A stretch of DNA of 56,518 nucleotides, counting the filler, from Platydemus manokwari (lineage: Eukaryota), in NCBI GenBank assembly GCA_037951405.1. It is 5 parts of 5 records of this genome, joined end to end, with 100 filler letters (N's around TTAATTAATTAA, not from the genome) between each part and the next. Parts side by side here need not be neighbours in the genome. Positions count along the whole stretch, not along the records: positions 33,454 to 45,112 come from JBBMOY010542218.1; 4 more parts are not named here. One strand, 5' to 3'. The notes beneath the pieces were generated by a model, which did not search any database, was not told the origin of the DNA, and worked only from the letters and a program-made list of their open reading frames with translations. The translations under genes and the position numbers were made by a program. Positions 6,444 through 56,518 of this stretch are shown piece after piece (the first letter of the stretch is position 1; each line of letters opens with the position of its first letter).

Positions 6444-8342
6444 TTAAACCAGATTTCGAAACGCGCTTTGATAAAATTCATAATACTCAGGAAGATAATC
6501 AAAACAATCTAATTCTTCCCGGCCTTCTTGATAGAATTGGTCAACGACTTTCCGGTACTGTTTGTTTTGAAATGCTACACAATAATGGCAAACGTTTCTA
6601 TTGAAGCAGTCTTTCAGTTTAAGACAATCGGGAAAATTGTCCACTAGATATTGAAACAATCCATCATTTTTAGAGGTGATCGCCCAATGAATAATTGACA
6701 TTCCCTTTTTGTTGTATGCAAAGGCGTTCATTTCGTTTTTGATTACATCACTCCAATTCAAATCGGTGACTGAATTGGATGTTGAGAATATTTTTGAAGT
6801 CTTTTCATGCTCTTCTGGGAGACTTAAGTAAAAGTCCGCTACTTCCTGAGATACATCAAACAGATCTGGCCCACAAAGATCATAAATATTCGGAAAGTTT
6901 TCATAATACCCACAAATATATAGATTTTGTAAAGCCTGAAGATTTTCTTCATTGATCATGTTTAAAATTACAGAATCCAAATCATCTTTAATATTCATGT
7001 AATTCATCGATTGAGCTATTTCCTTCAAAGTATTAGCATTGCTGTCACGAAGACCAAAATTTACACCTCTTTTAACGATTTCAAACCAATCAACTTCCGA
7101 CGAATTAAAGGATTGCAATTTTTTAATCAAAAGTTTATAACCATACGGAGTACCACATTTATCCCTCGCAACTTTCGCGAAAGGAGAAAATATTTCGGGA
7201 TTAAAAGTGAAAACTTTTTCATCGGAATGAAAATCGGAATCAATCTTAATTCTCGATGATAAGACTTCATATTCATAGTCACTACTATCAAGATTCGTGG
7301 CATAGAATTTAAGAAAATTTCCCAAAAAGTCAATCGGATCTAGTGGTCGCTTTTCAACCACCAAAGCGAAAGCTTTAACGAGAGCATTCCCAACAGTTCG
7401 TTTCAAATATGCACTTTCATTTTTATCTGGTTTCGTTAGAGATTGAATATTTTCAGTGCGCTTTTTCAATTGAAATTCCATCAGATCTGATTTGATAAAT
7501 TCTTTATAATAATCGAAATTCAAAAGATGTGGATAACATTCATAATATTCGGGACAATTTCCCAAAACGTCTACAAAGTTAAATAGACAATTTGTAGACA
7601 TATCAACAATGATTTCGTTGCGTTGAGGTGTAGATTTAATAGAAAAGAGATAATGTAATGCCGTCCTACCCATATGATCAGTAGCCTTGATGTCATTTTG
7701 CAAGCAAATTTCTTTCATATAATTAATGAAATCATACTTTTCAAACACCACCGCAACATGGATTAAAGTCAGCCCAGATTGATTGCGAAATGAAAGGAGT
7801 TCATTTGTTTGAAATGTAGTTGATCTAAGAGAATCTTTGAAAATATTGAAATTACCAGAATCATTTTCAACAACCAGTTCAGTGAAAAGTCTGACATTCT
7901 CCGTAAGGCTTTCAATCGATGTCAAAAATGCCGTGAAATTATCATTTAATGAATCCCTCAATTTTTCAATAGCACTTTCCAAATACGGTTTATAATTCCA
8001 GCCTTGAACAATTAAACTTCTTATATAATCGCCTTCGCAATTGCGCAATTTATCCGCCAAATAGTCCACAAGTTCATTTTCATAAAACTTTTCCAACTTT
8101 CGACCTGGGAATAAGTCCTGGGCTAATTTAAATTCTTCATTCCGCAGCGAGATATTTGAACGTTTCAGAATGATTTCAAACACATCAACTTTGCATTCGG
8201 CTTGAACCAACAGATGGAGCAAAGAATTCCCATGTTCATTTCGAGTGTCCAAAAGCGATAAATCCAACTCTTCGAGTTTGTGTTTGATTTCTTCAATATC
8301 TTCTGTTTGAATAATGATATCACAGAAATAATTCAACGACAT
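6444..8342 (-). CDS. Ankyrin-repeat protein with a central Dpy-30/RIIa-like dimerisation-docking motif (632 aa, single exon)
   Basis: Uninterrupted 632-aa ORF. Ankyrin-like segments GNSLLHLLV, GLTLIHVAV, GRTALHYLF, GMSIIHWAI, NRNVCHYCV; Dpy-30-like motif YLKRTVGNALVKAFALVVEKRPLDPIDFLGNFL. Confidence 0.85.
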   Translation of the reverse strand: MSLNYFCDIIIQTEDIEEIKHKLEELDLSLLDTRNEHGNSLLHLLVQAECKVDVFEIILKRSNISLRNEEFKLAQDLFPGRKLEKFYENELVDYLADKLRNCEGDYIRSLIVQGWNYKPYLESAIEKLRDSLNDNFTAFLTSIESLTENVRLFTELVVENDSGNFNIFKDSLRSTTFQTNELLSFRNQSGLTLIHVAVVFEKYDFINYMKEICLQNDIKATDHMGRTALHYLFSIKSTPQRNEIIVDMSTNCLFNFVDVLGNCPEYYECYPHLLNFDYYKEFIKSDLMEFQLKKRTENIQSLTKPDKNESAYLKRTVGNALVKAFALVVEKRPLDPIDFLGNFLKFYATNLDSSDYEYEVLSSRIKIDSDFHSDEKVFTFNPEIFSPFAKVARDKCGTPYGYKLLIKKLQSFNSSEVDWFEIVKRGVNFGLRDSNANTLKEIAQSMNYMNIKDDLDSVILNMINEENLQALQNLYICGYYENFPNIYDLCGPDLFDVSQEVADFYLSLPEEHEKTSKIFSTSNSVTDLNWSDVIKNEMNAFAYNKKGMSIIHWAITSKNDGLFQYLVDNFPDCLKLKDCFNRNVCHYCVAFQNKQYRKVVDQFYQEGREELDCFDYLPEYYEFYQSAFRNLV

Positions 8343-9384
8343 ACGGGAAAAATTAAAAAAAATATTAGCAAAATGTAAATAAATACAATTTCCATGGAAA
8401 CGAATAAGAAATATTTCTACTCTGACAGCTCGTTGCTAATGCAATTTTCTTTAAATGAAATGAGAGAACATTAAAATGATAATTAATATAATGGATAATT
8501 ATTATTTTAACAAAAACTGTTATCAACAAGATAATGACATAGAAAAACACAAAAATTCGTCTTCCAAACATTGTAATAAAATGTAAATTATTATTGAATC
8601 TTTGCTCGAATTGCTGCTCTTTTGGTAGTGACGGCTTGAAATCCAGCGGTATGTGAATCAACACTATACTTAGATGTGCATGAATTACAAATCAAGAATA
8701 ATAATCGTGAATCTTTGGACAGTTTTGTATCCGATAATTGACATGTTTTGCATATTACATAGGCTCCTAGAAAAACAAGAACTCAATTACAAAATTCTTT
8801 GCAGAAGATTCCGAAGAAATCATGACAATAAAATGTTTAATGTTTATATTTAATATCAAAATCAAAACAATGAAAAGGAGATTCATATAGTTCTACTAGG
8901 AACAGCTCACAAAAAAATTCTCTGGCACATGTAATTATTGATTTATTGGTAGAGAAATTTTCAGATTTTTTTTCTATCGAATGAAAATACAACACATTTT
9001 TAGAAAATATGATAATTATTGCAAATAGCAAGTGAAATTTTTAAAAATTATTCAAAAAACAATGTTCATAATTGTTTGGAAATAATATATATAATTTGAG
9101 ATAAATTCTCAAATGAAAAATAAAATTAAAATTTTTATTCGATATTACCAATATTTCGGCTTCGTACCAATTGGTATAGATAGTCGGACACCGATAAAAA
9201 CAACTTATTGATTTTCTCTATTATTTAGTGGATAAAAATAATTTTGTTCAAATTAAACGATTTTTATATAGTGCCCCACAGCGAAATACTACAAATACAA
9301 TATTTTAAAAATGGCATTGACTAAATCGCAATGAATTGTTCTAACTTTAAAATCCTGTTGATTATTAATTATTCAATTTCAATC

Positions 9385-13898: not shown

Positions 13899-15035
13899 AT
13901 GAATTTCGAATTAATTTTGTCCAGAAATCTGCCACACAGTTTCAATGATTTATCAACAGAAGAAAAGTTATAAAATTCCATCATTATTAATTTATGTGAA
14001 TCGATCTGATTTAGAATAAAAGAAATTGAAAAATTGGATCACATTTATCTCGATCGTGAAAATTTATCCAAAATCGAAAACTTAGATTTTTTATCAATCA
14101 ATGTCACTCATATTTATCTTCAAAATGTAAGAATATTTGTTAACGAATGACTTTCATTGAATGTGATATCAGAATAAAATCGAGAAGATCGAAAATTTGG
14201 AGTGTCTTAGGAATTTGCGATGTTTGATTTTGTCAAATAATTTGCTGAATAAAATTGAAAATATCAAACATTTGAAACGATTGCAATCATTGGATGTTTC
14301 GAATAATGAAATTGTAAATATTTCTCCGGGTAAATTGGATTTTATTCTTATTCTATTGGTGAAATGGATTCCTGTTTTTATGGGTTATTTTATGATTTCA
14401 ACTTTTGAGATGCCAGCGAGGGAGTTATTTTGGACATTTTATTCATTATTTCTCGGAAAATGTTAATTTTTCATTATAAAAACAGCGAAAATTTATTTTC
14501 CTGTGGGGGGTATCCATGCTAACCTATGAGGGTTTTTACAATTTTATCAGCCAAAGATTTATTATTGACTTGATTGATTCCCGGATAAGCAGAAATTATA
14601 ATTGATGTAATCTTGTATTGATTTTTATAAAGGGTTTCATCTTGAACTGGTGTTTGAAATGTTTTTTCTCTCCTCAGATGAGATTCCCCGATCGCTTGTG
14701 ACACTCAATATTAAAGGAAACCCGCTGATTTTGTCGGACAAATTACAGCCATTCAATGCAGAATTGCCTTTATTAATCGTGCTTGATGATGCAGATGTGA
14801 AAAAATCAACACCAAACGATGGCCATGAACTGACATGCGGTAAAGCATTGAGTTGGTAGCAGTGGGTTGTGATTGATTTGATGGGTTTTTAGATGATGAC
14901 GAGATTGGCGAGAATGTGATGGCCATGTTAAATCGTTCACAACAACGAGTGGAGAATAATTATCGCCAGAGATTAGCTTATAATGATGACATATTGGAAA
15001 TGAAAGATCGTTTGAAGCAATTTATTCAATCCTGA
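13899..15035 (+). CDS. LRRC46: Leucine-rich repeat protein 46; exons 13899-13966, 14015-14126, 14173-14329, 14678-14839, 14893-15035
   Basis: All introns GT-AG with consistent phases. Spliced protein MNFELILSRNL..HIYLDRENLSKIENLD..HIYLQNNKIEKIENLECL..LDVSNNEI..DEIPRSLVTLNIKGNP..ELPLLIVLD matches the LRRC46 pattern (LDRE, LYLQ.NKI..IENL, DE.P.SL..LN..GN, LPLL..LD). A further 5' exon cannot be excluded. Confidence 0.85.
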
Positions 15036-19738: not shown

Positions 19739-20713
19739 TCACAAAAATAATTTTGGATCCGCAATGGGATCCCTCTGGTTCCGGAACCGAATGGCCAACC
19801 AAACTCCGATTATCTGAAAATAGAAACAAGTTAAGCGGCCAATTAAAACAGGGTCAGAAAAATCGATATTTGAAGTTTGGAATCACCTCAGTGAAACTGA
19901 AGAGCAACCCAACAACACCCGTCACCTTGACAGCAGCGTCGAGATTGTTGTACAGCTTGGTCCAGCAAACTACACAAGGACAGTCATTGTAGCGCCCCTT
20001 CGTACCAGTGCAGCACGATGTCTGGTTCGCTACGATCCCTTGGCAACACTGGAGCTGCAAAATGTAATCAGGGATTCACGAGCCTAGCAACGATAAATGC
20101 TCACATTTAGCTCATTGCATTTCAAGTTGGGATCGTGATTTATGTCGTTCCAAAACAGGCCACAGCAATTGAACGTCGTCATAACATCGATTTGGGCAGG
20201 CCGCGAATTTTCCCAGCCTCGCTTTACCAAATATTTTTCCATTTTTTCATTGACCGCCAAACATGCGCAAGCAATCGAAAATTGAACGAGAAATAAAATA
20301 AACAAGATTATAATGTACTGAATTAGAGATAATTTCCGTTGAGGAAAACAATTCAATTCAATGGTTTTTCCAATAAATAAATCTCTACAATATTTACATC
20401 TCAAAGGATACGAAAAACAAAGCAATTTGATTATGTTTAGAAGTGGCAAAAATGCCCAAGGAAGCTATTAAAGCCAAAAGCACACCGCAAACAATTATCC
20501 CTCCACAAATACTAACACTCGTCACTACAGCCGACAATCTAGCATATGCTCCGAGTAAGATCAAAAGCATTGCCACAAGCTGAATTACAGTAAAAACAAA
20601 AAAAATTATAAAAATAAGAATAAATTAAAATAAATAAAAAAGAATTAACTTACGATATAAATGACATTCAGAGCGAACAATGAACTTCTCAAACATTTGA
20701 AGTTAATTAACAT
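19739..20713 (-). CDS. TSPAN31: Tetraspanin, TSPAN13/TSPAN31 subfamily (227 aa); exons 20713-20654, 20579-20412, 20317-20105, 20054-19887, 19813-19739
   Basis: Phase-0 GT-AG introns; four TM segments; KHNQIALFF|YIIILFILFLVQFSIACACLA; CCG motif; C-terminus FSFTE|IIGVWLAIRFRNQRDPIADPKLFL typical of TSPAN13/31. TSPAN13 and TSPAN31 cannot be distinguished here. Confidence 0.92.
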
Positions 20714-31315: not shown

Positions 31316-32971
31316 AAGACATTATTTTGTTTCAGCGAACTAAATTTCAAATTTAATTTTAGGAAATTTAGAAAATCGACCAGACTTGAAAAAATCTTTT
31401 TAATGATAGGCTTCATAGCAGACAATTAAAAGAGGCACACATAACCAACAAAATTAATATCGTGACATTGTAATTTCATATTTATTATCCTGATATTAAA
31501 ATATGTCGTCATTTTTTCATGAATAAATGACCATTTGAGCACTAGATTTCGACATAAATTCCCCATTTAATCACAAATGCAGCCTTTCGGCAATCGATAA
31601 TTATTGTGATGATTTTTCAATTATAATTTCACACACACACAGAGACACACAAGTATACATTTTGAAATTACTATTTTTCAGTGAAAGGATTTTCCAATAC
31701 CAATTGAGAAATTACATTTCAATACGTATTATGAGAAATATTTTTGACCAATGCTACACGATTCATTTGATAGCGATGGATTTTTTCGTTCAATTTCTTT
31801 GTCAATTATAATAAATAATATCATATTTGAAACAATAAAACAAAATAATTCATTTTATATTACAATAACTAACCAAACTGTCCAAACAAAATAATAAACA
31901 AGACACACAAAACCTTTATTCAACAAAAGAAAAAATAGATTTTAAAAATATGTTTTTTTGAAGACAATAAAGAACATATAATAATATTTTGGTATTATTT
32001 GATGTGGAGCTCCAACATAAAAACAGGTTTTCTACGTGATATTATTCAACTTATTTTTGATATTTTGTTTGTCTCTATATTGTTTTTTTCTGTTTATCTT
32101 CAAACCAATTAATATTCTATACCTTTTTTGTTTGATGGCTTTAGTACATTTTTTATTACTTTCTTTGTTCTTTTGGTAGATTAGATGTGTTGCTGATACA
32201 AAATCGATTTCCCTTTGGATTTTTCTAAAGGAGAAAGCGAATCGGTTTTCTCGGTTCAATATGGATTATGAAAATAATGGAGTCTGCTTATTCATTCTTC
32301 CATTGTGTTGCTTTTTTATACTTCTAATATCAAGTACAAAAAACCTACCAGCTAATAATCACAACAACCAATCGAATGATTTCTATGTTAAAACCGATAT
32401 TAATCGTTAGTAAAGAAGAAATTTAAGTTTTCCCAACTTTAATTGTCAATTCTAATTTTTTTTATTAAATTCTCCATAATAAGAACACTCCAACCAAACG
32501 AAGACCTATGCATAAATTCTTGTAGAAAAGATAAATACGAAAAACGAATTTTAAATAATCAGTTGACATAGAAAAGTTTCTTTATTGAGCCAATCGAAAT
32601 AGCATTTCTAACAAAACATTCCAAACAACAGATACTGGAAAATCGTGGAAAATCCTCATGAAATATAATACAATGTTGTTACTTGATTTATAATAGGGAA
32701 TGGAATAAACATTAATGATTGATTATAATATAATATTTAGCTAATAGTTGTTTAAATTGTTGACAAGAAAATGTTGTTTGATCGAATGGCAAATTATGAA
32801 TAACGAAAATAATTTCTAAATTTACCGTTGAAAAGGTTTTAATAAATTCATTTTTATCCAAGAATCCGTAATTATTGGTGTCCAATTGCTTTAGAGCCTT
32901 CACCAAATCCGTTTTTGTTATTATCGGAATCTCACGACAAATATTAATGAAATCATCGAAAGTGATTTCCT
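30304..32971 (-). CDS. EFCAB7: EF-hand calcium-binding domain protein 7-like, two internal exons (32971-32826, 30390-30304); partial gene
   Basis: AG/GT-bounded exons splice to EITFDDFINICREIPIITKTDLVKALKQLDTNNYGFLDKNEFIKTFST|PDSKLSRRDIADIVAKVDVKNEGKLNFEE, matching the EFCAB7 EF-hand region (FDDF..I.R......K.EL.K.FKQLD.N.DG...GEKM.R.EV..I....D.N.DGK..Y). Confidence 0.7.
31236..31291. repeat. (CA)n/(TA)n microsatellite
   Basis: Seen directly in sequence. Confidence 0.95.
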
Positions 32972-33353
32972 CTAAACAAAAAATAACAAATAATTTCAAC
33001 ATAAATCAATACATCTACAAATTAAAATTAAAACGACACACACATCTCAAATAAAATTTTAAAAAAAATTAAATTCTAATGGTTTATTATTAATTATTTT
33101 AATTTATTTGTTTTAAAATCACAGACTTTATTATGCGTCAACAAAATAAAAATTGTGATAAATAGGTGCAATAAATACTTTTTGTGAAATCATGATAACG
33201 TTATGTCAATAATTGTTCATATTTTTTTAACGTGAACATTTGAAAAAATTGGAACGCTAGTGTTCATATTAAACAAGATTGACTGTTTTTCCTTTTATAA
33301 TTAGATTACGTTTTGGCGTTGCTTTATCAGGTTTTATAGAAACATTGTATATT

Positions 33354-38968: not shown

Positions 38969-39488
38969 ATGAGAAAATTAAAACTTTCATTTTGGACACG
39001 AGCTTTCGTTACAATTCAAAATAAACAATCGCCATCGGCAAACGTAACTCTAAAGCAAGGATTAGAAACAATGAATTTACGAACCAATTTTTGTATATAC
39101 TGTAAAAAGATATAAGGATATATCACTGATTGGAACATTAGCAAAAATAGGAATAAATAAAGAAAAGGAAATCAAATTAAATAACACCATGCCATCTAAG
39201 ACAATCATATTATCATCATTGGGAATACATAATATAACATATACACAGTGTTATGCGAACCAATATACATCGAAATGATATTGTAAAAAAAGAAAAGCAA
39301 TCCAGTGGAAAAATGAATTAGAACAAATAAGAAAAGAAAAAGATAAAATAATTAAGGATAGAATTGGAACGTTAAAAACTGTTAAAAAATATGAACAACA
39401 TATTAAGAGTTTAAAATTTGCCTTAATAGCTAGTCTAGCTATAACATTCATAGCAATAATAATAATATATGGAAAAAAGAAGAAATAA
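38969..39488 (+). pseudogene. Decayed accessory ORF with CxxC, coiled-coil and C-terminal TM helix
   Basis: Fragments MRKLKLSFW..FCIYCKK, QWKNELEQIRKEKDKIIKDRI, LKFALIASLAITFIAIIIIYGKKKK. Confidence 0.45.
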
Positions 39489-39598
39489 TGATATCACAAC
39501 ACCAATAATATATGGAAGAAGAATTCCAAGAATAGCAGCACTAACAACTGTAATGATAATGATACCATGCGTTCAAACGTGCGACAGCCCAGTCATGA

Positions 39599-40138
39599 TG
39601 TTCACTTTTTATTAATATAGGTAGAGAAGAATTAAAAGTATATAGTAGATATGGAAAGATGATACTGAATAACAAATATAAGAATGAAAAGATGAAATCA
39701 TTTACGGTACAACTTAAAAAAGAATTAAGAGTTAAGGGGGAAAGAAATTGGCAAACATCTGATAATAGATTACTCGAGAGTGACAATGGAGCTGTAAATA
39801 TATATAATTTAAATTGCAGAACCATATATCAGTTAGAAATAAGTAAAGAAAAAGATATCACAACAATGACAGTCCAAACCTCCGAATTACCCCGTAAAAT
39901 ATTTATTGAAAAACTCTTAGATCAGATTAAAATCATTTGGGAAGATTTAAAATGCCTTGAAGTAAGAGTGCCTGTAAATGAACATCAATATAAAATAAAT
40001 ACATTAGAAGGAATCATCACCCGGAATTTCAACATCAAAAAACCTGTAAATTTATATTTCTGGTATTATGAAAAAAGAAATCCCGAATTCATAATTCATC
40101 GAGAGCAAATAATACTAAAACCCTTTGTAAAAAAATAA
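39599..40138 (+). pseudogene. Accessory ORF, divergent macro-domain-like (TARG1/OARD1/Poa1-type)
   Basis: Collinear resemblance to TARG1: FTVQLKKEL~IAVLFKKKF; GAVNIYNLNCRTIYQLEISK~GEVAVLKRDGRYIYYLITK; LDQIKIIWEDLKCLEVRVP~LEAMKSHCLKNGVTDLSMP; INTLEGIITRNF..VNLY~WENVSAMIEEVF..ITVY. Frame is open from 39599. Confidence 0.45.
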
Positions 40139-40789
40139 TAACAACAAAATTTGTTAGTAAAACAACAACGAAGACTATGAGAACATCAGTTAATAATATC
40201 ATGACCCTCAAAAGTTATAAGAAACCCAGAGTGAAATCACCCCAAACATAATGAAGGTCGGAGCAGTTATCTCCAGTCTGACCACCATAATGATAATGTT
40301 CATAAGCTATAAGTTGTATAGGAAATATTGCAGAGACAACCCTCGTGTATGGGAAGTCAATCTATAGCAATTTCAGAAAAAAATAAATTCTCGTTGTAAA
40401 ATCTTTGGTTATTTAATTTCAATCAATTTGTATAAGTATCAATGGGACCAGAAAATCAATATGTACATAAAAAGTAGTTATTTTAATAATTTAGAAATTT
40501 TAAATGAAAAAAATTTGTGTAAATATCAGAAATCAATATATAAAACAATAGTTGATTACTTCAAATTATGTAAAAATAAAAATAAACTTTTATGTCAAAG
40601 AATGTATGAAGGATTTAAATATTGTAGATATAAAATAAAGCATGGTGAATTAATAAATGTAATTAATTTTCTTACAAAAATGACAGCAAATAAAATAATG
40701 GGAAAAAATAATTTAACCAATAAGAAAATTCCTGAAAAATCCTTACCCAATGAAAAAATCACGCATACATAATCAACCAACCAAAATCA

Positions 40790-42658
40790 TGCGCTAAGCT
40801 CATATAAAAGAAACTCTTTAGTAGATAAAAATCATAAATTCCTAGACGTAAATATTGATTGACAACTGTACAAGTAAGGATTTGTTATTTTAATATTGGC
40901 ACCAATTACGATATCATGATTACAGACATGGAACCAGCTACGAGTATAGTGCAATATTACCCTAGACGTTTTTACAACGCCATCCGTGCAGCAGTAAGAA
41001 AAGCACCGTTCGGGATTGGCAGAAGAATATTTTCAGATGCAATCCACATACCCAACAATTTGAAAACAGCGTCCCAGTCTAAAAGAACAGTATTAATTCT
41101 GCATTCACAGGAGCAGGGAGTGTTCAAATTGAAGGACATCCTTCCAATACTCAAATTTGCCCCACAAGAACTTAAGATACACAACGTTCAAAGCGATGTC
41201 TTTATCGAATACCCAGAAGAAAAAATTGAACTTGAAACGCAAGCATCAATAACCATTTATATGAAATCTCAAATTCGACCCAATTTTCAGAATGATTACA
41301 CGCAGATAAAAATCAAAGCAAAAACTATTCCATATTCGATAATGATAGAATGTATTGAATCGGAGCAATTAGAACCCGTTGAATTAAGAGAGAGCCGTTA
41401 AATTTCAATTTACTGAACATGCCTTTCCTTGGTCCGAAAAATGAGATGTCATTTTTAAGAAATATCATCCCGATAAACCAGCAAGAAGTAAAAAAGCTGA
41501 CAGTCTTCTTCGATGCCAAATATGCAATTGATTTTAACAATAAAGAGTATCCAGTGTGGATATGTTTAAAGGATAACAGAAGAAATGACATTTTTAATGA
41601 AATTTGTTGCCCGAGGCAAGAGATCAAGCATTACCAGGAAAATAAGACACACACAGCAGAAAGCATGACCAGAGGAGCTATGGATGCTGAAGATGCCAGG
41701 AGAAAGGTGATAGAGTTAACCAGGGGAAAGATACTGGGTGGCTATGATCTTAAAAGGAAACTAAAAGCAGTCTCGATTTATATGGAAGAACTACTTGGAG
41801 TCAGGGATCTAAAGGGATAAATTGCTGTAGAAAATGAAATGAGAAGAAACCGGCATTTTCTGAGCAAAAACTTGCACGCGGCCATCGTGGAAAGGAAGAT
41901 GCCACAATTCAGGAATCGAACTGATGAAATTGATGCAATAATGAACATCTATCAGAAAATTGAGTCAAAATGGCAAGATAAAGAAGGAGACAATGACGAA
42001 ACTAGATGGAAACAAAAAATTCAGGATGAAGGACAACAAATGATAAAAAAGCCACCAACATATTCGAGTGGGCAGACGAGGAAATATTGACTGAAAATAC
42101 TATTATACGAGCCAAAAATCAAATATGGAAACTCAAGTCAGCAGAGGAACAAGTCCTGGAAAACAAGAGGAATAAATTTTGGAAAAAAAATATTCGGGAG
42201 TTCAAGACTTTGAGCGGATGGAAAAAATTCAGGTAATTAATTATTGCAATGAAATTCAGCCAGCAGCAGAAAAAATGGAATTGGACAATGAAAAAGAGTG
42301 CAAAGACGATGATGAATACGAACTCACATCTGAAGATGAAAGATTCCTAGAACAACTCTGTCAAGAGTCCATAATCGAGGATCAAATGCTGAAAAATGAA
42401 GAGGAATTCGAACAATTATGGCGAGAAGCGGAAGAGTATATTCGCCAGGATATTGTCAGAAACTCCAATCTCAACCCTAATGGGGAGGAATTCATCCCGA
42501 GACAATTATAGATGAGCACCAATGAAAAGAATCAGCCAATTGAAGTAAATGAAAGGAAACGAAAACGATCTGAAAATGCTGATGAGCCTCTAAAAAGAAA
42601 AAGCATGAGGACATGCTTCCATCAATCCCCGAGTAGTGTTGGGGATCGATCGATTTAA
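40790..42658 (+). pseudogene. Decayed long accessory ORF: unknown domain + DEDDh (REXO4/ISG20/PAN2-like) exonuclease fold + PAIP2-like acidic/PAM2 region + NLS
   Basis: ORFs 40859-41401, 41419-41820, 41839-42090 and 42179-42511 are joinable through a few frameshifts and single in-frame stops (41818-20, 42509-11). Motifs VFFDAK, GKILGGYDLKRKLKAV, VRDL, DAIMNIY, SNLNPNGEEFIP, RKRKR..KRK. Confidence 0.7.
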
Positions 42659-42752
42659 CAATTACTTTGTGTGCAAATAATACTTTTTTATTTTATTTTT
42701 GTGTTTTATTAACATTTAATGAACTTTTATATGTATAAAAGTAATTCTTATT

Positions 42753-42761
42753 AAAAAGGGG
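42753..42761 (+). promoter_or_regulatory. Polypurine tract preceding the 3' LTR
   Basis: aaaaagggg, 1 nt upstream of TGTTAA. Confidence 0.6.
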
Positions 42762-42762
42762 T

Positions 42763-44006
42763 TGTTAATTAGTAATTTTGTAACAATTTTTAGTGGAGAC
42801 GGTTGAATGATTTAGTATTAATGTATTTTTAGAAATAGTAATTAAAATGTTAGGAACCTTTTCGATACATTTGACATGGTGTCAAATGTATCAGAAATTT
42901 TTATCAATTTTTCGTAAATAATTTATGAACACAATTCCAGAGGGAGTTATAACGAAATATTTATAATAATAATAGTTTATAATAATATTGATAATTTATA
43001 TAAAATTACGTAATAATTATTATTTGAAGTGGCAACAATATAATTTATATTAAACAAATTAAAATGGCAACAGAATTAAATAATTAAAGGGAATAATATT
43101 ATAATATTTCTAGCATTAAAATTCTATAGTAATTTTAATAACAATCAATATTCGGAAAAACCCATGGGGAATTTTAAATATTGTAGCGATTTTAATCATT
43201 TAAGCCTGACGAATAAGAATAGTATAAATACAAGTTCAAATATCAGAACTTGCCCATTAATTTACGAAACCACAAGCCGATAGTACGTTTGCAAGAAGAT
43301 TATTAATACCAATCTCTCGAAGTTTAGAAGAATTGCTCGACCACAGATCATACGCCATTTTATGCCAATTTGCCATTTCAAGTAGTAAGTCAGATTTTGT
43401 GTAAACTACTGATTATCAATCTATAGTACGTATTGTATAGCCTTCTATTATAGAGTTTTACTCAAACACCTTTGGTAACTGGTTTTACGCCAAGAGCAGG
43501 CTGTATTAACCACTGTCATCTGGAATTTTTAGGTAAACCCGTCATCCGAATTTTTATATTGTTGTATAAAAGTATCGGAAATTGTAATTTTGTTATCGTA
43601 TCAATAAACCTTTTATTTAGTCAAACGTGTTGGAATTATCAATTGATATTTTAAAGTTAATATTGTTGAGACTGATTAGGATTAAAACACCCCTTTCGGA
43701 TCATTGTTGCCAATCATTTCTATCTTCATGTAGATTTGATTGCGAGGTGAATAAAGAAGACAATATAATGTTTAAGTGTACCCTGGGCTTGATTAGAACT
43801 CGCCAGAGACTGATCAAGACAACAGTGATCCTTGAGCAAAATCATTAACATTGAAATAACATTGAGACTGATTAAAACAAACAAATTAAAAATACAAGCC
43901 CAAAACGCAAAATCTATAAGAATTAGCATTTTTGATATTTTATTGTGCACAGAAATTAAAAAATTAATTAATGATAATTTTTTATTTATATTTACCTAAA
44001 AAAACA
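42763..44006 (+). mobile_element. 3' LTR (~1.24 kb), termini TGTT...AACA
   Basis: Preceded by a PPT; shares collinear blocks with 47566-48741 and 12333-12965 (e.g. ggatcattgttgccaatcat; gcttgattagaactc..gactgatcaagac; tatagagttttactcaaa). The 3' end is approximate. Confidence 0.65.
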
Positions 44007-45212: not shown

Positions 45213-46860
45213 TGATCAGTTCTCACAATAAATTTCTTACCATATAAGTAGTGCTTAAATTTTTTAACAAACACATAGATGGCTAGCAATTCTTTTCTTG
45301 TTATACAATATTTATGCTGCCCTTTTGTCAGTATTCTTGATGCGTACGCTATCACAAGTTCTTCTCCGTTTTGTATTTCCCTTCAAATTTCCATTCTCTG
45401 CATGAAATTAATGATAATTTCGATTTATGAAAAGATGTTGTTACTAAATCGCTCCACTCAAATTTACTGTCTTTCTTCAGTAATTGGTATAGTGGTTAGG
45501 TAAAACCAACAAAATATTTTATAAACCGCCTATCATAACCACATAATCCAAGATGATCCTGTAGTTCCTTGACACATTGAAGTTTTAATCAATTTTCTAT
45601 TTCCCCAATTTTTTCTTCATCTCTTCGTTTACCTCAATTTTTTACCCTTAATTTCCTAAATGCTTAATTTCTTTTCTAAAGAAAAATAATTTTTGGTGCC
45701 ATTTTAAACCCAGCCTCATCGATTCGATTCAAAACCCTTTCCAACTTTTTATTGTTTTCATCGACTGTTCTTTCAAATATTCGAATATCATCTAGATAGA
45801 AAGATAGACTACACAGTTTGTCCAATTTTCAGTCTTCATTATCACATTCATAATTGTCTGAAAAGTTGCGGGCACTGAATATAATCCAAAAGACATTCGA
45901 TTAAACTGAAATTGCCTGTATCTAGTGTTAAATTGTGTTTTTTCCTTTACTTCTTTTTCTAATTCAACTTGATAATATCCGTTTGCCAAATCTATTGTTG
46001 AAAAATATCTGGCTCCTTGCACAGCAACAAATATGTCTTCGGAATTCGATATAAGAAAAATTGAACTGGACGTAGCAGCATTTAACTTCATAGTCTTCGC
46101 TGATTACATTAAGCTCAGTTCCTGTGTCAAAACTTATATTCACTTTCTCATCTTCAACTTTACTATCGACTATTGGTAAGCTTTTTGTCTTTTCTGGTCT
46201 GCGATTCGTTGAAACCGTGTCTGTTTTGCCAACATTCGTTTTGGTTTAGCTCCTTGAATATTCACAAACTGTGCATAATTGACTTCGGTCGAATTGAATT
46301 GTTTGTCCCTAGACTTTTTTGGCTTAAAAAGTCACCAATATCCAACATATTGCAATCTTTCTCAGAAAGTGTATCCAACCCCCAGATATTGTCCTCTTCT
46401 AATGTGATGCTTCTGTCCTATGTATTTAAGTATTTGATTTGTACGACAGATTCTTTGCTGATGGGAACCAGCATATAGAAAACATTCAATTGTCTCACAT
46501 TAACGAGCATAATGCCATTTTTGTTAACAAGTTACGGCATCTATTGATTTGGAACCTGATTTCCGAAAAGTTTCGTTGTTCTATTAATTTGGCAATGTTT
46601 TGCTTGAGCCTTAAATTTGCTAATGATGTCCTTTTCGTCTGATTTTATGCGTTTCAGATCCCACGGTATATCCAAATCTTCTTATTCTTGATTTGAGACA
46701 TCAGTTTCTTCCTTGATAAGTATGACCACTTCATCTATATTCTTTAGGTTTGATTTCTTCAGGCCAAATGTATAGATCTCATTAAGAATCCCTTTAATGA
46801 ATATCTTCTTGGAAATTTCTTCCTTATTTTTAATATTAATCCCAGTCACGAAAAATTTAA
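45213..46860 (-). mobile_element. Ty3/gypsy gag-pol remnant (gag, protease, RT, RNase H) with internal deletions
   Basis: FDTGTELNVIS (protease); GARYFSTIDLANGYYQV..TQF..FQFNRMSFGL..PATFQ..CVVYL (RT); IAYASRIL..YCITRKELLAI..FKHYLYGKKFIVRTD (RNase H). Confidence 0.92.
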
Positions 46861-53408: not shown

Positions 53409-56294
53409 TCATAGAGTAGGCCTTTATATATCACACTAATAAATTAAGGAAAGGTTTTTTCAATTTCGAGACTGACTCCAAATGTTAATTTATGAAAGAA
53501 TCAATAGTGATTACATAATTTTTCAGGCATTCCTATCCCAAACAAATTTAAACACATTAGTGAAATATGTTTTAAATTTGCCAAATGCTAAATTTAAATT
53601 TTTTAAATCATATTAAGCTAATTTCGATCTTAGTTTGATTGAGTTATATGAATTGATATAAATGATTAGTAAGTTACGATAATACTGTGATTCGTTTCGA
53701 TTAAACGGGATGTTATTAACCGACTCCAATGGCATTACTCGTTTCAGTTGAAATAAACGAAAAAATACAAATTCATGAATGGATGGAATAATAAAAATTT
53801 TGTTAATATTTGAAATTTTTCTACATTTTTGTGAAGCTTAAATTTCTAAGTCGTAAAATCTTATTTCATACTGTTATCAATGATGCAACAAGTCAGCTAA
53901 GAACGGAATCAACATCTCGAACTTAATCAATCAATCAGTATATTTTCAATGTCAAATTACAAGGTTCACACACTCACTTAATAGAAAACGGTAAAGCTTG
54001 AAACTGTTAGATTTATTTAATTATTTTTCTTTATTTTTAACATTATCCATATTAATGATTTTTCCAAAAAACGTTTTCAACAATCACAAAATTTAACTAT
54101 ATTGATATTAGTTTCAATTTTCGTCCCAGTTTCAGATTCGATAATCACTAGAATGACTGTCGTATTTGTAACAATTTTCACAGTCATTCTACTGAGACAT
54201 TAAAGAGTCTTCAATTTTCTAATTTCACTTGATTATATTTCGATCTTTTCATTATCTTATCTTTCAAATATTTTTATCGATTCCATTTATTTAAATATAA
54301 AACATCGATGAAGTTTTTAAGTTGTTAATTTTAATAAAGTAAGCATTGGAAACTGACCGATAAGTCACGACACCAAATGATTCCTAAACATTTTTGTATT
54401 TTATAAAAGTCTGATTTTAAAATCTTCACAACGCTTAATATATTTTAATAAGTCTGTTTTCACCTGACTAGTTATTGAGGTTAATCAACAACTTTTATCG
54501 TTTATAGTTATTCTAGTTTTATTGTCTAGACTCTAGACTGAAAAATTATCTTTTTTATTGTTGTAAAATTGTTCTTCTTTTTAATGTTAAATAATTTTAA
54601 ATCTGCGAACCAATTACTGAATAATAGTCATGATCTGTAGAATTATTTTCTCTACATTTTAGTCAGTATTGAATCATTTACAAACATCCCATTCTTCGCA
54701 GAACACTATGACACTCATCTTATTATTCAATTTAGCTGTGAATAATATATGGGAATTTGCCATACGCCTTTTACTTCATTATCTTTCGAAGTAAAAGCGC
54801 ATTAATCGTCGCGATCTGGTAAAAAAATTTGGTTCATTGTTTTACAAAGCACGAATAACAATGCCATTTCTAATTTTAGTTTAGCTATCCATTTCTGTGC
54901 ACCGTAGACAACCAAATGAAAATACTTTTGGGAAGAAAAAGTTTAAAAGGTGTTATAATAGAGGACATTGTTTTAAGATGCAATCACGGTTTTATTCTTT
55001 TGTCTAACTGAAAACGAATCCACCACAATTCTCTCATGATCCCATTGGTCTAATGTAAATCTTGAGATCCATGGGACCTTAATTGTAAATCATTGAAATA
55101 TAGTTTCACAATATCATATAGCATATTTATCGAGTCATTATTTGATAAAAATCACACCAAAATAATATCCGAAAAATACTTTCATATTCAAATAATAATG
55201 GCTAACTAATTATTTGAAGGCAAATAGTTATTTTTAGATAGAGACTCTGTCAGCAAAGTTTAGATTTTATCAATAAACTGAAAGATGACTTTGTGCTAAA
55301 TATACAACAGTCTGTAAGTCGATGTAAATTTCCTATCCAAACAAAATCAGGTGAACCGTTTAAATAAAAATGACATTTCAAATTGACCACGAATTATCCA
55401 GTTAAGAATCAAATATATCAAAATGATCGATTCATGTGTAGTACAAATACGATTCCAAGGAACGATCGATTCTGATTGGGTAATTTCGACATTTATATAA
55501 ATAAATAACATTTTTCAAATCCTTGCCCCCAACCGGGACACCCGTGAACATTTGATAGCTTTTAATTTCAACAAGAATTTCCTCACATCGACAATTCATT
55601 TTTTCATCACAACCTATCATTAAGTTAAACAGAACAAATTTATTTGAACTTCATTTTCATTACAGCAAAGGCAGATTTTATTTGAAAAACAGTCAGCAAA
55701 ATTTTTACTTCAAATGATATTTTAATTAAATGACGTTTGGTGATTTAGTGGATTTATTTTAATTGCCATAAAATTGGAAATGATTTGACTGATAGGAATG
55801 ATATTTTGTCAATTTTGCTTTTTATTAATAACGATTGGCTAATTAGGTTTCCATTTCTTCATTGTTTGTAGAAGACTATTCATAGATAAATTAAATTTAA
55901 ATTCTTATGTCAGTCGATATTATGCGTCCCTATTTTCTATATTAAGCTAATTACTCTCATACTAGTTTTCTAAATCAATGATGACCATCATCGTATTTTG
56001 AAAGAATATAAACAATATATCATTAACATTTGATTTCGATGTTTAATATGGTTGAAAAATAAACCTGAAATTTGAATGTTAGAGAAATCTACCAATCTCA
56101 TGTTACCATGAAAATAAATAATGATCTTTGTGAGGTTAATTTGATAAAAAACAAAATGATATTTTAAAAATATGATTATTATCAAAACTATTATTAGTAA
56201 TGTGAAAAATAAATATACCATTTCGATATTTATAAAAGCCTAGGATTTTGAAAAACAATACTGTTATACACTCAGTATAAAAATAATTAAAAAT

Positions 56295-56518
56295 AAAATT
56301 GTTTGGATCCGGAAATGCCAAAATCAGAGCTGTGCATAATTGTTCCTTAAGGTTTCCAAAACTTTCCTCACACTCTGTACTCCACTCCAATTTCTTGTCA
56401 TTTCCAGTCATTATCGTATATAACGGAGCCGTAATTAATGGGTAATCCTTGATAAATCTTCTGTAATAATTGCATAATCCTAGGAACGACCTCAACTGAG
56501 TGATGCAACCAGGTTTAA
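56295..56518 (-). mobile_element. Ty3/gypsy pol fragment (RT thumb/connection), runs off the window
   Basis: LRSFLGLCNYYRRFIKDY..ITAPL..LEWSTECEESFGNLKEQLCTALILAFPD. Confidence 0.92.

What the first reader, a model, noticed from the sequence alone, without database searches (positions are those of the whole stretch)
41490..41975. REXO4/ISG20/PAN2-type DEDDh fold with most catalytic residues replaced
Seen: spacing and motifs follow the REX4 family (VFFDAK ~ VALDCE; IFNEICCP..IKHY ~ YD.YV.P..V.DY; GKILGGYDLKRKLKAV ~ GRILVGH.L..DL..L; VRDL; RNRTDEIDAIMNIY ~ HSSVEDA.A.M.LY). By my manual alignment the D-E-D-H-D catalytic set reads D-K-K-R-E. D>K(aaa) and H>R(agg) need more than one substitution each, which hints at an ancestrally dead, RNA-binding pseudo-nuclease rather than simple decay. 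If active in intact copies, exonuclease plus PAM2 would mimic the PAN2-PAN3 deadenylase in one chain (inference).
Basis: partly seen in the sequence, partly recalled or inferred. Interest (0 to 1): 0.72.

Follow-up and report, generated by a model that had tools for sequence, protein, structure and literature searches.

The report
Retrotransposon's dead exonuclease with PABP hook
This is a broken copy of an extra gene of a virus-like jumping gene; its protein keeps the predicted shape of an RNA-trimming enzyme but lacks the cutting residues across the whole family, and it likely grips RNA ends and the host's poly(A)-binding protein to shield the element's own messages.

Summary
The fold is confirmed. 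A profile of 28 genomic copies plus the window's two pieces hits ISG20L2 (E 2e-10) and ISG20 (8e-8), and a model of the nearest open-frame copy matches ISG20 (TM 0.74). The window reads D-K-K-R-E as stated. The loss is family-wide: Lys/Arg at Exo I Glu in 26 of 26 copies, Lys at Exo II in 28 of 28, His in 0 of 27. The domain is nevertheless under purifying selection (dN/dS about 0.1). It is the middle of a broken last ORF (40928-42636) of a 5'-truncated Ty3/Gypsy LTR element with an env-like ORF. The ORF reads: oxygenase-like barrel, dead DEDDh domain, acidic helices, PAM2, then the LTR. Outside relatives share the barrel-nuclease pair: 25 with an intact site, 18 without, none with PAM2. No sequence has both an active site and PAM2, so the PAN2-PAN3 mimic idea fails. 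Best guess, untested: an RNA 3'-end binder tethered to PABP that protects element RNA. The scan noted this two-domain protein before in another genome; the PAM2 tail was not in that note. Known precedent: intact DEDDy ORF3s of rotifer LTR elements.

The parts
39120..40365 (+). 3' remnant of the element's env-like region (broken; two predicted membrane segments near 39402 and 40248). The window copy is 5'-truncated at 39120 and lacks about 180 bases near 39290.
   Evidence: In copy L093 this region is the end of one 866-aa frame that starts in the integrase C-terminus.
40366..40927 (+). AT-rich spacer. Its 134-codon open frame (40368-40769) shows no coding signal. A splice acceptor before the next ATG is possible (inference).
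   Evidence: Mismatches by codon position 36/29/35%; ATG contexts
40928..41398 (+). ORF3 N-terminal domain: double-stranded beta-helix (2OG-Fe(II) oxygenase/cupin-like) fold, with no HxD/E..H triad seen and a conserved His and Glu
   Evidence: Model pLDDT 77; VIA Z 9.9 prolyl hydroxylases, 9.3 ALKBH6; conservation; 64% third-position mismatches
41476..41982 (+). The finding: ISG20/REXO4-fold DEDDh domain with catalytic positions D-K-K-R-E; in-frame stop at 41818-41820 in this copy
41983..42463 (+). Charged helical region and acidic helices (from 42317); frame changes near 42050 and 42200
   Evidence: (57% third-position mismatches for 42200-42508)
42464..42499 (+). PAM2 motif (PABP MLLE-binding type), weakened in this copy
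42500..42636 (+). Basic C-terminal tail of ORF3 (broken by a stop at 42509-42511 and a frame change near 42600); the final stop abuts the LTR
42637..43912 (+). 3' LTR, about 1.27 kb, starting TG; right end 43909-43912 (exact base not settled)
   Evidence: Matches in other contigs start and end at these points with unrelated flanks. A 5' copy is followed by a primer-binding site complementary to a host tRNA-Met 3' end.

Best explanation
The stretch is the middle domain of a broken copy of the last, accessory gene of a Ty3/Gypsy LTR retroelement, a domain predicted to have the ISG20/REXO4 fold that lacks its catalytic residues family-wide and likely binds RNA 3' ends without cutting them, while its PAM2 tail likely docks on host poly(A)-binding protein to protect the element's RNA. 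Shown: the context, sequence homology, the family-wide loss of three to four of five catalytic residues, purifying selection, and a conserved PAM2 in one subclade. Predicted: the folds. Inferred: (1) the two Lys/Arg that replace metal-binding acids would hold RNA phosphates directly; (2) PAM2 would place the protein on poly(A)-PABP and compete with PAM2-bearing deadenylase recruiters such as PAN3 and TOB (recalled knowledge); (3) the result would be a longer-lived element RNA. The window copy itself cannot make the full protein.
For: Identity. Context: RT (E 4e-18) and integrase zinc finger upstream of the ORF in copy L100; integrase C-terminus and env-like frame upstream in other copies; LTR, primer site and gag-like frames. 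Dead site: K/R in 26 of 26, K in 28 of 28, His in 0 of 27, Asp at Exo III in 3 of 26. The basic residues are kept through synonymous codon changes. Selection: median dN/dS 0.19, 0.11 and 0.09 in three dS bins from 0.1 to 1.0 (30 pairs); 0.07 for window vs nearest copy; 62% third-position mismatches against 34% in the LTR. PAM2: 29 distinct in-frame motifs. All 12 PAM2 matches reported from 130 scored candidates in the genome are element-borne. Best PDB match of the tail profile is the Paip2 PAM2 peptide (E 0.002). The host encodes MLLE domains. Complex prediction gives weak support: 0.46 vs best control 0.03, runs agreeing in at least 87% of contacts, partner pLDDT 59. That mark was reached by 51 of 78 solved pairs and 2 of 108 mismatches, but at 0.60 or under by only 5 solved pairs and all 4 passing mismatches; MLLE-PAM2 complexes are solved, so likeness alone may explain the pass.
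Against: No direct evidence of RNA binding. The domain's net charge (median 0) is not more basic than that of active relatives (+2) or cellular enzymes (+4). One of the main genomic subfamilies (L058-L069, L075) and all 18 dead outside relatives show no PAM2, so the dead domain has a job that does not need PABP. 290 of 433 dN/dS pairs were saturated, and open-frame copies were chosen, which biases that test (the codon-position test is not so chosen). Protection versus repression cannot be told from sequence.
Confidence: 0.45

Rival explanations
1. Paip2-like PABP antagonist: the acidic helices plus PAM2 would strip or sequester PABP and depress host translation, with the dead nuclease as a carrier or RNA anchor.
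For: Acidic helices directly precede PAM2 and are under coding constraint. The best PDB match is Paip2's PAM2. Paip2 uses PAM1 plus PAM2 to remove PABPC1 from poly(A) (PMC9019252, passages). The likeness of the acidic part to PAM1 is recalled, not from a call.
Against: The tail profile found no protein at E<=1 among 2381 candidates of 16-158 aa (limited sensitivity). The acidic stretch differs in sequence between subfamilies.
Confidence: 0.2
2. The dead domain is a protein-binding scaffold or decoy with no nucleic-acid role, for instance supporting the barrel domain or titrating a host silencing factor.
For: Other dead relatives have lost even the first Asp and differ widely at all five positions. 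Net charge is neutral. The barrel-nuclease pairing is constant while the tails vary.
Against: In this clade the pocket residues are not free: Asp, Lys/Arg and Lys are held across subfamilies only about 35% identical.
Confidence: 0.2
3. A switched active site: the domain, or the barrel with its conserved His and Glu, still catalyses something by non-DEDD chemistry.
For: Maelstrom lacks the DEDD motif yet is described as a nuclease-derived, nuclease-like protein (PMC7968707, passages). The barrel keeps His in 50 of 55 and Glu in 48 of 55 rows.
Against: No alternative His/Cys cluster is conserved in the nuclease domain. No HxD/E..H pattern is conserved in the barrel.
Confidence: 0.1
4. Active PAN2-PAN3 mimic in one chain.
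For: DEDDh fold and PAM2 lie in one ORF; active-type relatives exist.
Against: 0 of 28 genomic copies have an intact site, and 0 of 150 outside hits have a PAM2-like motif. The closest folds are ISG20/ISG20L2, not PAN2.
Confidence: 0.02
5. Simple decay of a captured host REXO4/ISG20 gene.
For: This copy has stops and frame changes.
Against: The same replacements occur across subfamilies, dN/dS is about 0.1, and cellular REX4-like proteins form their own clade at support 99.
Confidence: 0.02

Closest known systems
ISG20 / ISG20L2 / REXO4 DEDDh exonucleases (PDB 1WLJ, 7YW5)
   Same: Profile homology (E 2e-10, 8e-8) and predicted fold (TM 0.72-0.75)
   Different: Three to four of five catalytic residues are replaced; fused to a beta-helix barrel; borne by a retroelement; separate from the cellular clade
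DEDDy ORF3 of bdelloid rotifer Juno/Vesta LTR retrotransposons and Terminons (Rodriguez et al. 2017, PMC5408684; read abstract through discussion)
   Same: A DEDD-superfamily ORF3 downstream of pol in LTR elements; a DEED variant is reported there and is seen in 16 of 25 active-type relatives here
   Different: Those are RNase D-like DEDDy with intact catalytic residues and replace env. This is REX4-type DEDDh, follows an env-like region, is dead in this clade, and has an N-terminal barrel and PAM2.
AlkB-like 2-ODD ORF of orchid Ty3/Gypsy elements (PMC9289625; abstract only)
   Same: An oxygenase-fold extra ORF in a Gypsy element, acting on RNA
   Different: That one is an active m6A demethylase close to host AlkB. 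Here the likeness is at fold level only (7-12% identity), no metal triad is seen, and it is fused to a nuclease fold.
Maelstrom and EXD1 pseudo-nucleases (named in PMC5408684 discussion; PMC7968707 passages)
   Same: DEDD-fold proteins without the catalytic set, described as RNA binders
   Different: They are host piRNA factors from other DEDD branches; this one is encoded by the element
Paip2 and other PAM2 proteins (PDB 1JGN chain B; PMC9019252 passages)
   Same: PAM2 motif preceded by acidic helices
   Different: Homology beyond PAM2 was not detected
Burro giant Gypsy elements of planarians (PMC6431247, passages)
   Same: Gypsy-type, env homology in frame with a polyprotein, many accessory domains
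   Different: In Burro env lies between gag and pol; here the env-like region follows integrase. No DEDD or PAM2 domain is listed for Burro in the passages read.

Membership tests
DEDDh exonuclease (REX4/ISG20 group) | Sequence homology to the group | tested here: met
   Profile vs PDB: ISG20L2 2.2e-10, ISG20 8.4e-8; 18 of 25 outside relatives hit Pfam RNase_T. Single genomic copies do not (0 of 30).
DEDDh exonuclease (REX4/ISG20 group) | RNase H-like DnaQ fold | tested here: met
   Model pLDDT 86.6; ISG20 TM 0.74; a prediction, made from the nearest open-frame copy
DEDDh exonuclease (REX4/ISG20 group) | Four acidic metal ligands plus the Exo III His | tested here: not met
   D-K-K-R-E in the window; 0 of 28 copies intact
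DEDDh exonuclease (REX4/ISG20 group) | 3'-5' exonuclease activity | not testable with these tools
   Needs an assay
Ty3/Gypsy LTR retrotransposon | RT before integrase, upstream of the ORF on the same strand | tested here: met
   Copy L100: RVT_1 E 4e-18, then Integrase_H2C2 E 3e-6, then ORF3, with an insertion between. Absent from the truncated window copy.
Ty3/Gypsy LTR retrotransposon | LTRs and tRNA primer-binding site | tested here: met
   20 primer-site matches vs 0 for the reversed control; 1 of 5 fetched candidates is a tRNA-Met gene
Ty3/Gypsy LTR retrotransposon | Polypurine tract next to the 3' LTR; target-site duplication | tested here: inconclusive
   No purine run directly abuts the LTR; flanks of solo LTRs fit a 4-base duplication in some cases only
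Ty3/Gypsy LTR retrotransposon | RT phylogeny placing it in a named Gypsy clade | not tested
   No named RT reference set was used
PAM2 proteins | PAM2 motif above the Pfam cut-off | tested here: met
   Relative P0001 26.3 bits; 12 element-borne matches over the cut-off. The window's own copy is below it.
PAM2 proteins | Binding to PABP MLLE | tested here: inconclusive
   Weak predicted support, 0.46 vs control 0.03; may reflect solved look-alikes
PAN2-PAN3 deadenylase | Active DEDDh site together with PAM2 | tested here: not met
   Never together in 28 copies and 150 outside hits
2OG-Fe(II) oxygenase / AlkB (N-terminal domain) | Double-stranded beta-helix fold | tested here: met
   VIA Z 9.9, rmsd 3.5, 136 aligned; cupins score nearly as well (Z 8.5-9)
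2OG-Fe(II) oxygenase / AlkB (N-terminal domain) | HxD/E...H iron triad | tested here: not met
   Only one His and one Glu, 56 residues apart, are conserved in 55 rows; judged from columns, not from a superposition
Paip2 | PAM1 homology | tested here: inconclusive
   No hit; both searches are weak for short acidic helices
Viral envelope glycoprotein (upstream ORF) | Homology to a known fusion protein | tested here: inconclusive
   Two membrane segments and 16 Cys in L093; no Pfam env hit; not folded

The most novel reading that the evidence does not exclude
An undescribed, widespread family of retroelement accessory proteins (beta-helix barrel plus REX4-type nuclease) split into an active branch and a dead branch. 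In this host one dead subclade then gained a PAM2 hook, giving a transposon-encoded poly(A)-tail guard that hijacks PABP to block deadenylation, a protein-based counter-defence against RNA decay and silencing.
Probability: 0.35. Interest if true: 0.82.

Novelty: new variant of a known kind. Interest (0 to 1): 0.6.

Why it matters
Animal retroelements have few known counter-defence proteins (my knowledge). Retroelement RNA is known to protect its tail with RNA triple helices (PMC12846552, passages), but my searches found no retroelement protein with PAM2. The family also offers a natural series: active-site-intact, dead, and dead plus PAM2 versions of one scaffold. That makes the enzyme-to-binder transition and the long-open role of DEDD ORF3s in LTR elements directly testable with short in vitro assays. 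The element also supplies all 12 top PAM2 matches in this genome, so expressed copies could compete with host PABP partners.

Tried and rejected
Pfam on single copies: no RNase_T hit. Word-seeded homolog searches found nothing: P0001, A1 among longer proteins, tail profile A9. Viral contigs: 24 pattern matches, 0 relatives. Metagenome contigs: 9 loci from a partial scan (38 of 64 parts); 8 are family members on 2-3.5 kb contigs, 1 is an unrelated bacterial exonuclease, and none reaches an RT. ESM Atlas: best scores 0.78 and 0.85, RNase_T clusters, leads only. PDB sequence search with the barrel profile: Csm6 E 0.003 and one weaker match, not supported by the fold search, rejected. The 134-codon spacer frame was rejected as coding. 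A more basic surface on the dead domain was not found. One or several losses of catalysis is unresolved: all dead rows group at 72 in the 91-row quick tree and at 95 after dropping 3 long branches, 1 duplicate and 12 rows of the cellular set (75 rows); long-branch attraction is possible. Two retroelement-type rows were mislabelled cellular and were among those dropped. The host species was not determined; 'planarian-like' is my guess from composition and is untested.

Full report
Observation. The five catalytic positions read D (41512), K (41518), K (41758), R (41911), E (41926). A stop at 41818-41820 splits the domain in this copy. No single sequence hits Pfam RNase_T. The stretch is multi-copy: 42 DNA matches, and 150 scored of 582 protein candidates at 32-93% identity apart from the query itself. 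From the loci fetched I aligned 28 copies with open frames over most of the domain plus the two window pieces (A1). Its profile matched 3 of 177,635 PDB sequences at E<=10: ISG20L2 2.2e-10, ISG20 8.4e-8, SDN1 0.13. A model of the nearest open-frame copy (pLDDT 86.6) gave ISG20 first (E 2.9e-8, TM 0.74), ISG20L2 next, and PAN2 at rank 9. The fold call is right.

Dead by ancestry. Among the 28 copies: position 1 is Asp in 23 of 25 with a residue; position 2 is Lys or Arg in 26 of 26; position 3 is Lys in 28 of 28; position 4 is His in 0 of 27 (Gly in 20); position 5 is Asp in 3 of 26. The Exo III register depends on a one-residue gap in some subfamilies. The basic residues persist through synonymous codon changes. 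Pairs with dS 0.1-1.0 (30 of 433; 290 saturated) give median dN/dS 0.19, 0.11 and 0.09 by bin, and window versus nearest copy gives 0.07. Mismatches to the window fall at third positions in 62% of cases in this domain, against 34% in the LTR. The protein was therefore maintained without its catalytic set. The window's Arg at the His position is nearly private, and most active-type relatives have Glu at Exo II (16 of 25).

Context. The window copy begins at 39120, where other copies continue upstream into an env-like region and an integrase C-terminus. In L093 these form one 866-aa frame with two membrane segments. Copy L100 has RT (E 4e-18) and an integrase zinc finger (E 3e-6) upstream on the same strand. 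Downstream, matches in other contigs start at 42637 and end near 43909 with unrelated flanks, marking an LTR. One is followed by a primer-binding site. That motif occurs 20 times (control 0), several times before gag-like frames, and complements the 3' end of a host tRNA-Met gene (1 of 5 candidates fetched). The finding is thus the middle of ORF3, 40928-42636, of a 5'-truncated Ty3/Gypsy-type element. ORF3 is broken here by two stops and frame changes near 41390, 42050, 42200 and 42600. A conserved ATG with upstream AG in many copies suggests a spliced subgenomic message (inference). The host is an AT-rich animal with a 911-Mb fragmented assembly; I did not identify it.

Anatomy. The N-terminal domain folds (pLDDT 77) as a double-stranded beta-helix: best Z 9.9 to prolyl hydroxylases, 9.3 to ALKBH6, cupins close behind, and viral 2OG-oxygenases in BFVD. 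No HxD/E..H triad is conserved; one His (50 of 55 rows) and one Glu (48 of 55) are. After the nuclease come charged helices, acidic helices and a PAM2. One search found 29 distinct in-frame motifs and 8 chance matches in other frames. All 12 PAM2 matches reported from 130 candidates genome-wide are element-borne. The tail profile's best PDB hit is the Paip2 PAM2 peptide (E 0.002). The host has MLLE domains (7 matches). A predicted MLLE-PAM2 complex got weak support: 0.46 against a best control of 0.03, contact agreement at least 87%, partner pLDDT 59. At such scores passes are often wrong, and solved MLLE-PAM2 complexes may explain it.

Wider family. The profile found 625 proteins at E<=0.001 among 1.84 billion, of which 150 were listed. 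Of 92 with a long enough N-terminal part, 48 share the barrel domain: 25 with an intact DE(D/E)HD set, 18 without, 5 incomplete. 18 of 25 aligned outside relatives hit RNase_T. None of the 150 has a PAM2-like motif. The 10 looked up are unnamed or 'hypothetical', on contigs up to 25 kb. One active-type gene follows an env-like membrane ORF (L121); RT linkage for that branch is not shown. In quick trees the genomic copies plus two partial outside proteins form a clade (99 and 96) and cellular REX4-like proteins another (99). The dead proteins group together at 72 or 95 depending on the rows kept. PAM2 maps to one subclade (support 97) and is missing from the L058-type subfamily, so it was probably gained after catalysis was lost.

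Mechanism. Shown: homology, context, family-wide loss, selection, PAM2. Inferred: the pocket lysines would bind RNA phosphates in place of metal; PAM2 would tether the protein to PABP; together they would cap or shield poly(A) ends of element RNA against deadenylases (0.45). Against it: neutral net charge, PAM2-less dead relatives, and no expression data. Rivals are a Paip2-like PABP antagonist (0.2), a non-RNA scaffold or decoy (0.2), and switched chemistry (0.1). An active PAN2-PAN3 mimic and simple decay are contradicted (0.02 each).

Comparison with what is known. Rotifer LTR elements carry intact RNase D-like DEDDy ORF3s (PMC5408684; parts 1-3 of 5 read, abstract through discussion). Orchid Gypsy elements carry an active AlkB ORF (PMC9289625; abstract). 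Planarian Burro elements carry other accessory domains (PMC6431247; passages). Paip2, Maelstrom and viral tail-protection strategies were read as passages (PMC9019252, PMC7968707, PMC12846552). Nine literature searches (mostly seen as listings) showed no barrel-plus-REX4 ORF and no PAM2 in a retroelement. Subscription papers, Repbase, Dfam and supplements were not seen and may hold an annotation. An earlier AI note of this scan (e1-9291447) describes the same two-domain protein in another genome. It led me to expect an oxygenase shape, which I tested myself; it is not independent support, and the text shown does not mention PAM2.

Verdict. A real, selected pseudo-nuclease in a retroelement accessory protein; the window copy is a broken remnant. 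New variant of a known kind (DEDD-bearing ORF3). Interest 0.6; 0.82 if the PABP-tethered tail guard proves true (probability about 0.35).

Noticed in passing
window 42600-42637: The ORF3 stop codon abuts the LTR and no polypurine tract lies directly before it, here or in the one other distinct internal-LTR junction printed; the nearest purine run is about 20 bases upstream.
   Followed up: partly
L093 46-2646 (-): One 866-aa frame runs from the integrase C-terminus through two signal-like/membrane-anchored ectodomains, a pol-fused two-glycoprotein layout with no Pfam env hit.
   Followed up: partly
L104 1225-4145 (+): A much more divergent ORF with what looks by eye like the same barrel and dead-nuclease layout follows an integrase-like C-terminus; a second, closer copy lies downstream in the same contig.
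   Followed up: no
L121 2-2841 (+): An active-site-intact relative (DEEHD) sits after a Cys-rich, Thr-rich, membrane-anchored ORF, the same layout as here.
   Followed up: partly
L059, L061-L063, L075 ORF3 tails: The PAM2-less subfamily ends in a long coiled-coil-like acidic tail with a conserved Trp/Pro motif instead.
   Followed up: no
window 6447-8435 (-): Intronless 663-codon frame with ankyrin-like repeats and a DPY-30-like stretch, read by eye.
   Followed up: no
window 45795-46245 (-) and 56139-56516 (-): Fragments of other Gypsy-type protease/RT and RT-RNase H frames, read by eye.
   Followed up: no
window 14167-14463 (+), 20087-20464 (-), 32715-33005 (-): Likely host exons: leucine-rich repeat, tetraspanin-like and EF-hand, read by eye.
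   Followed up: no
P0021, P0047, P0134 (outside proteins): Proteins with four tandem REX4-like stretches; the best-scoring stretch of each lacks the catalytic set.
   Followed up: no
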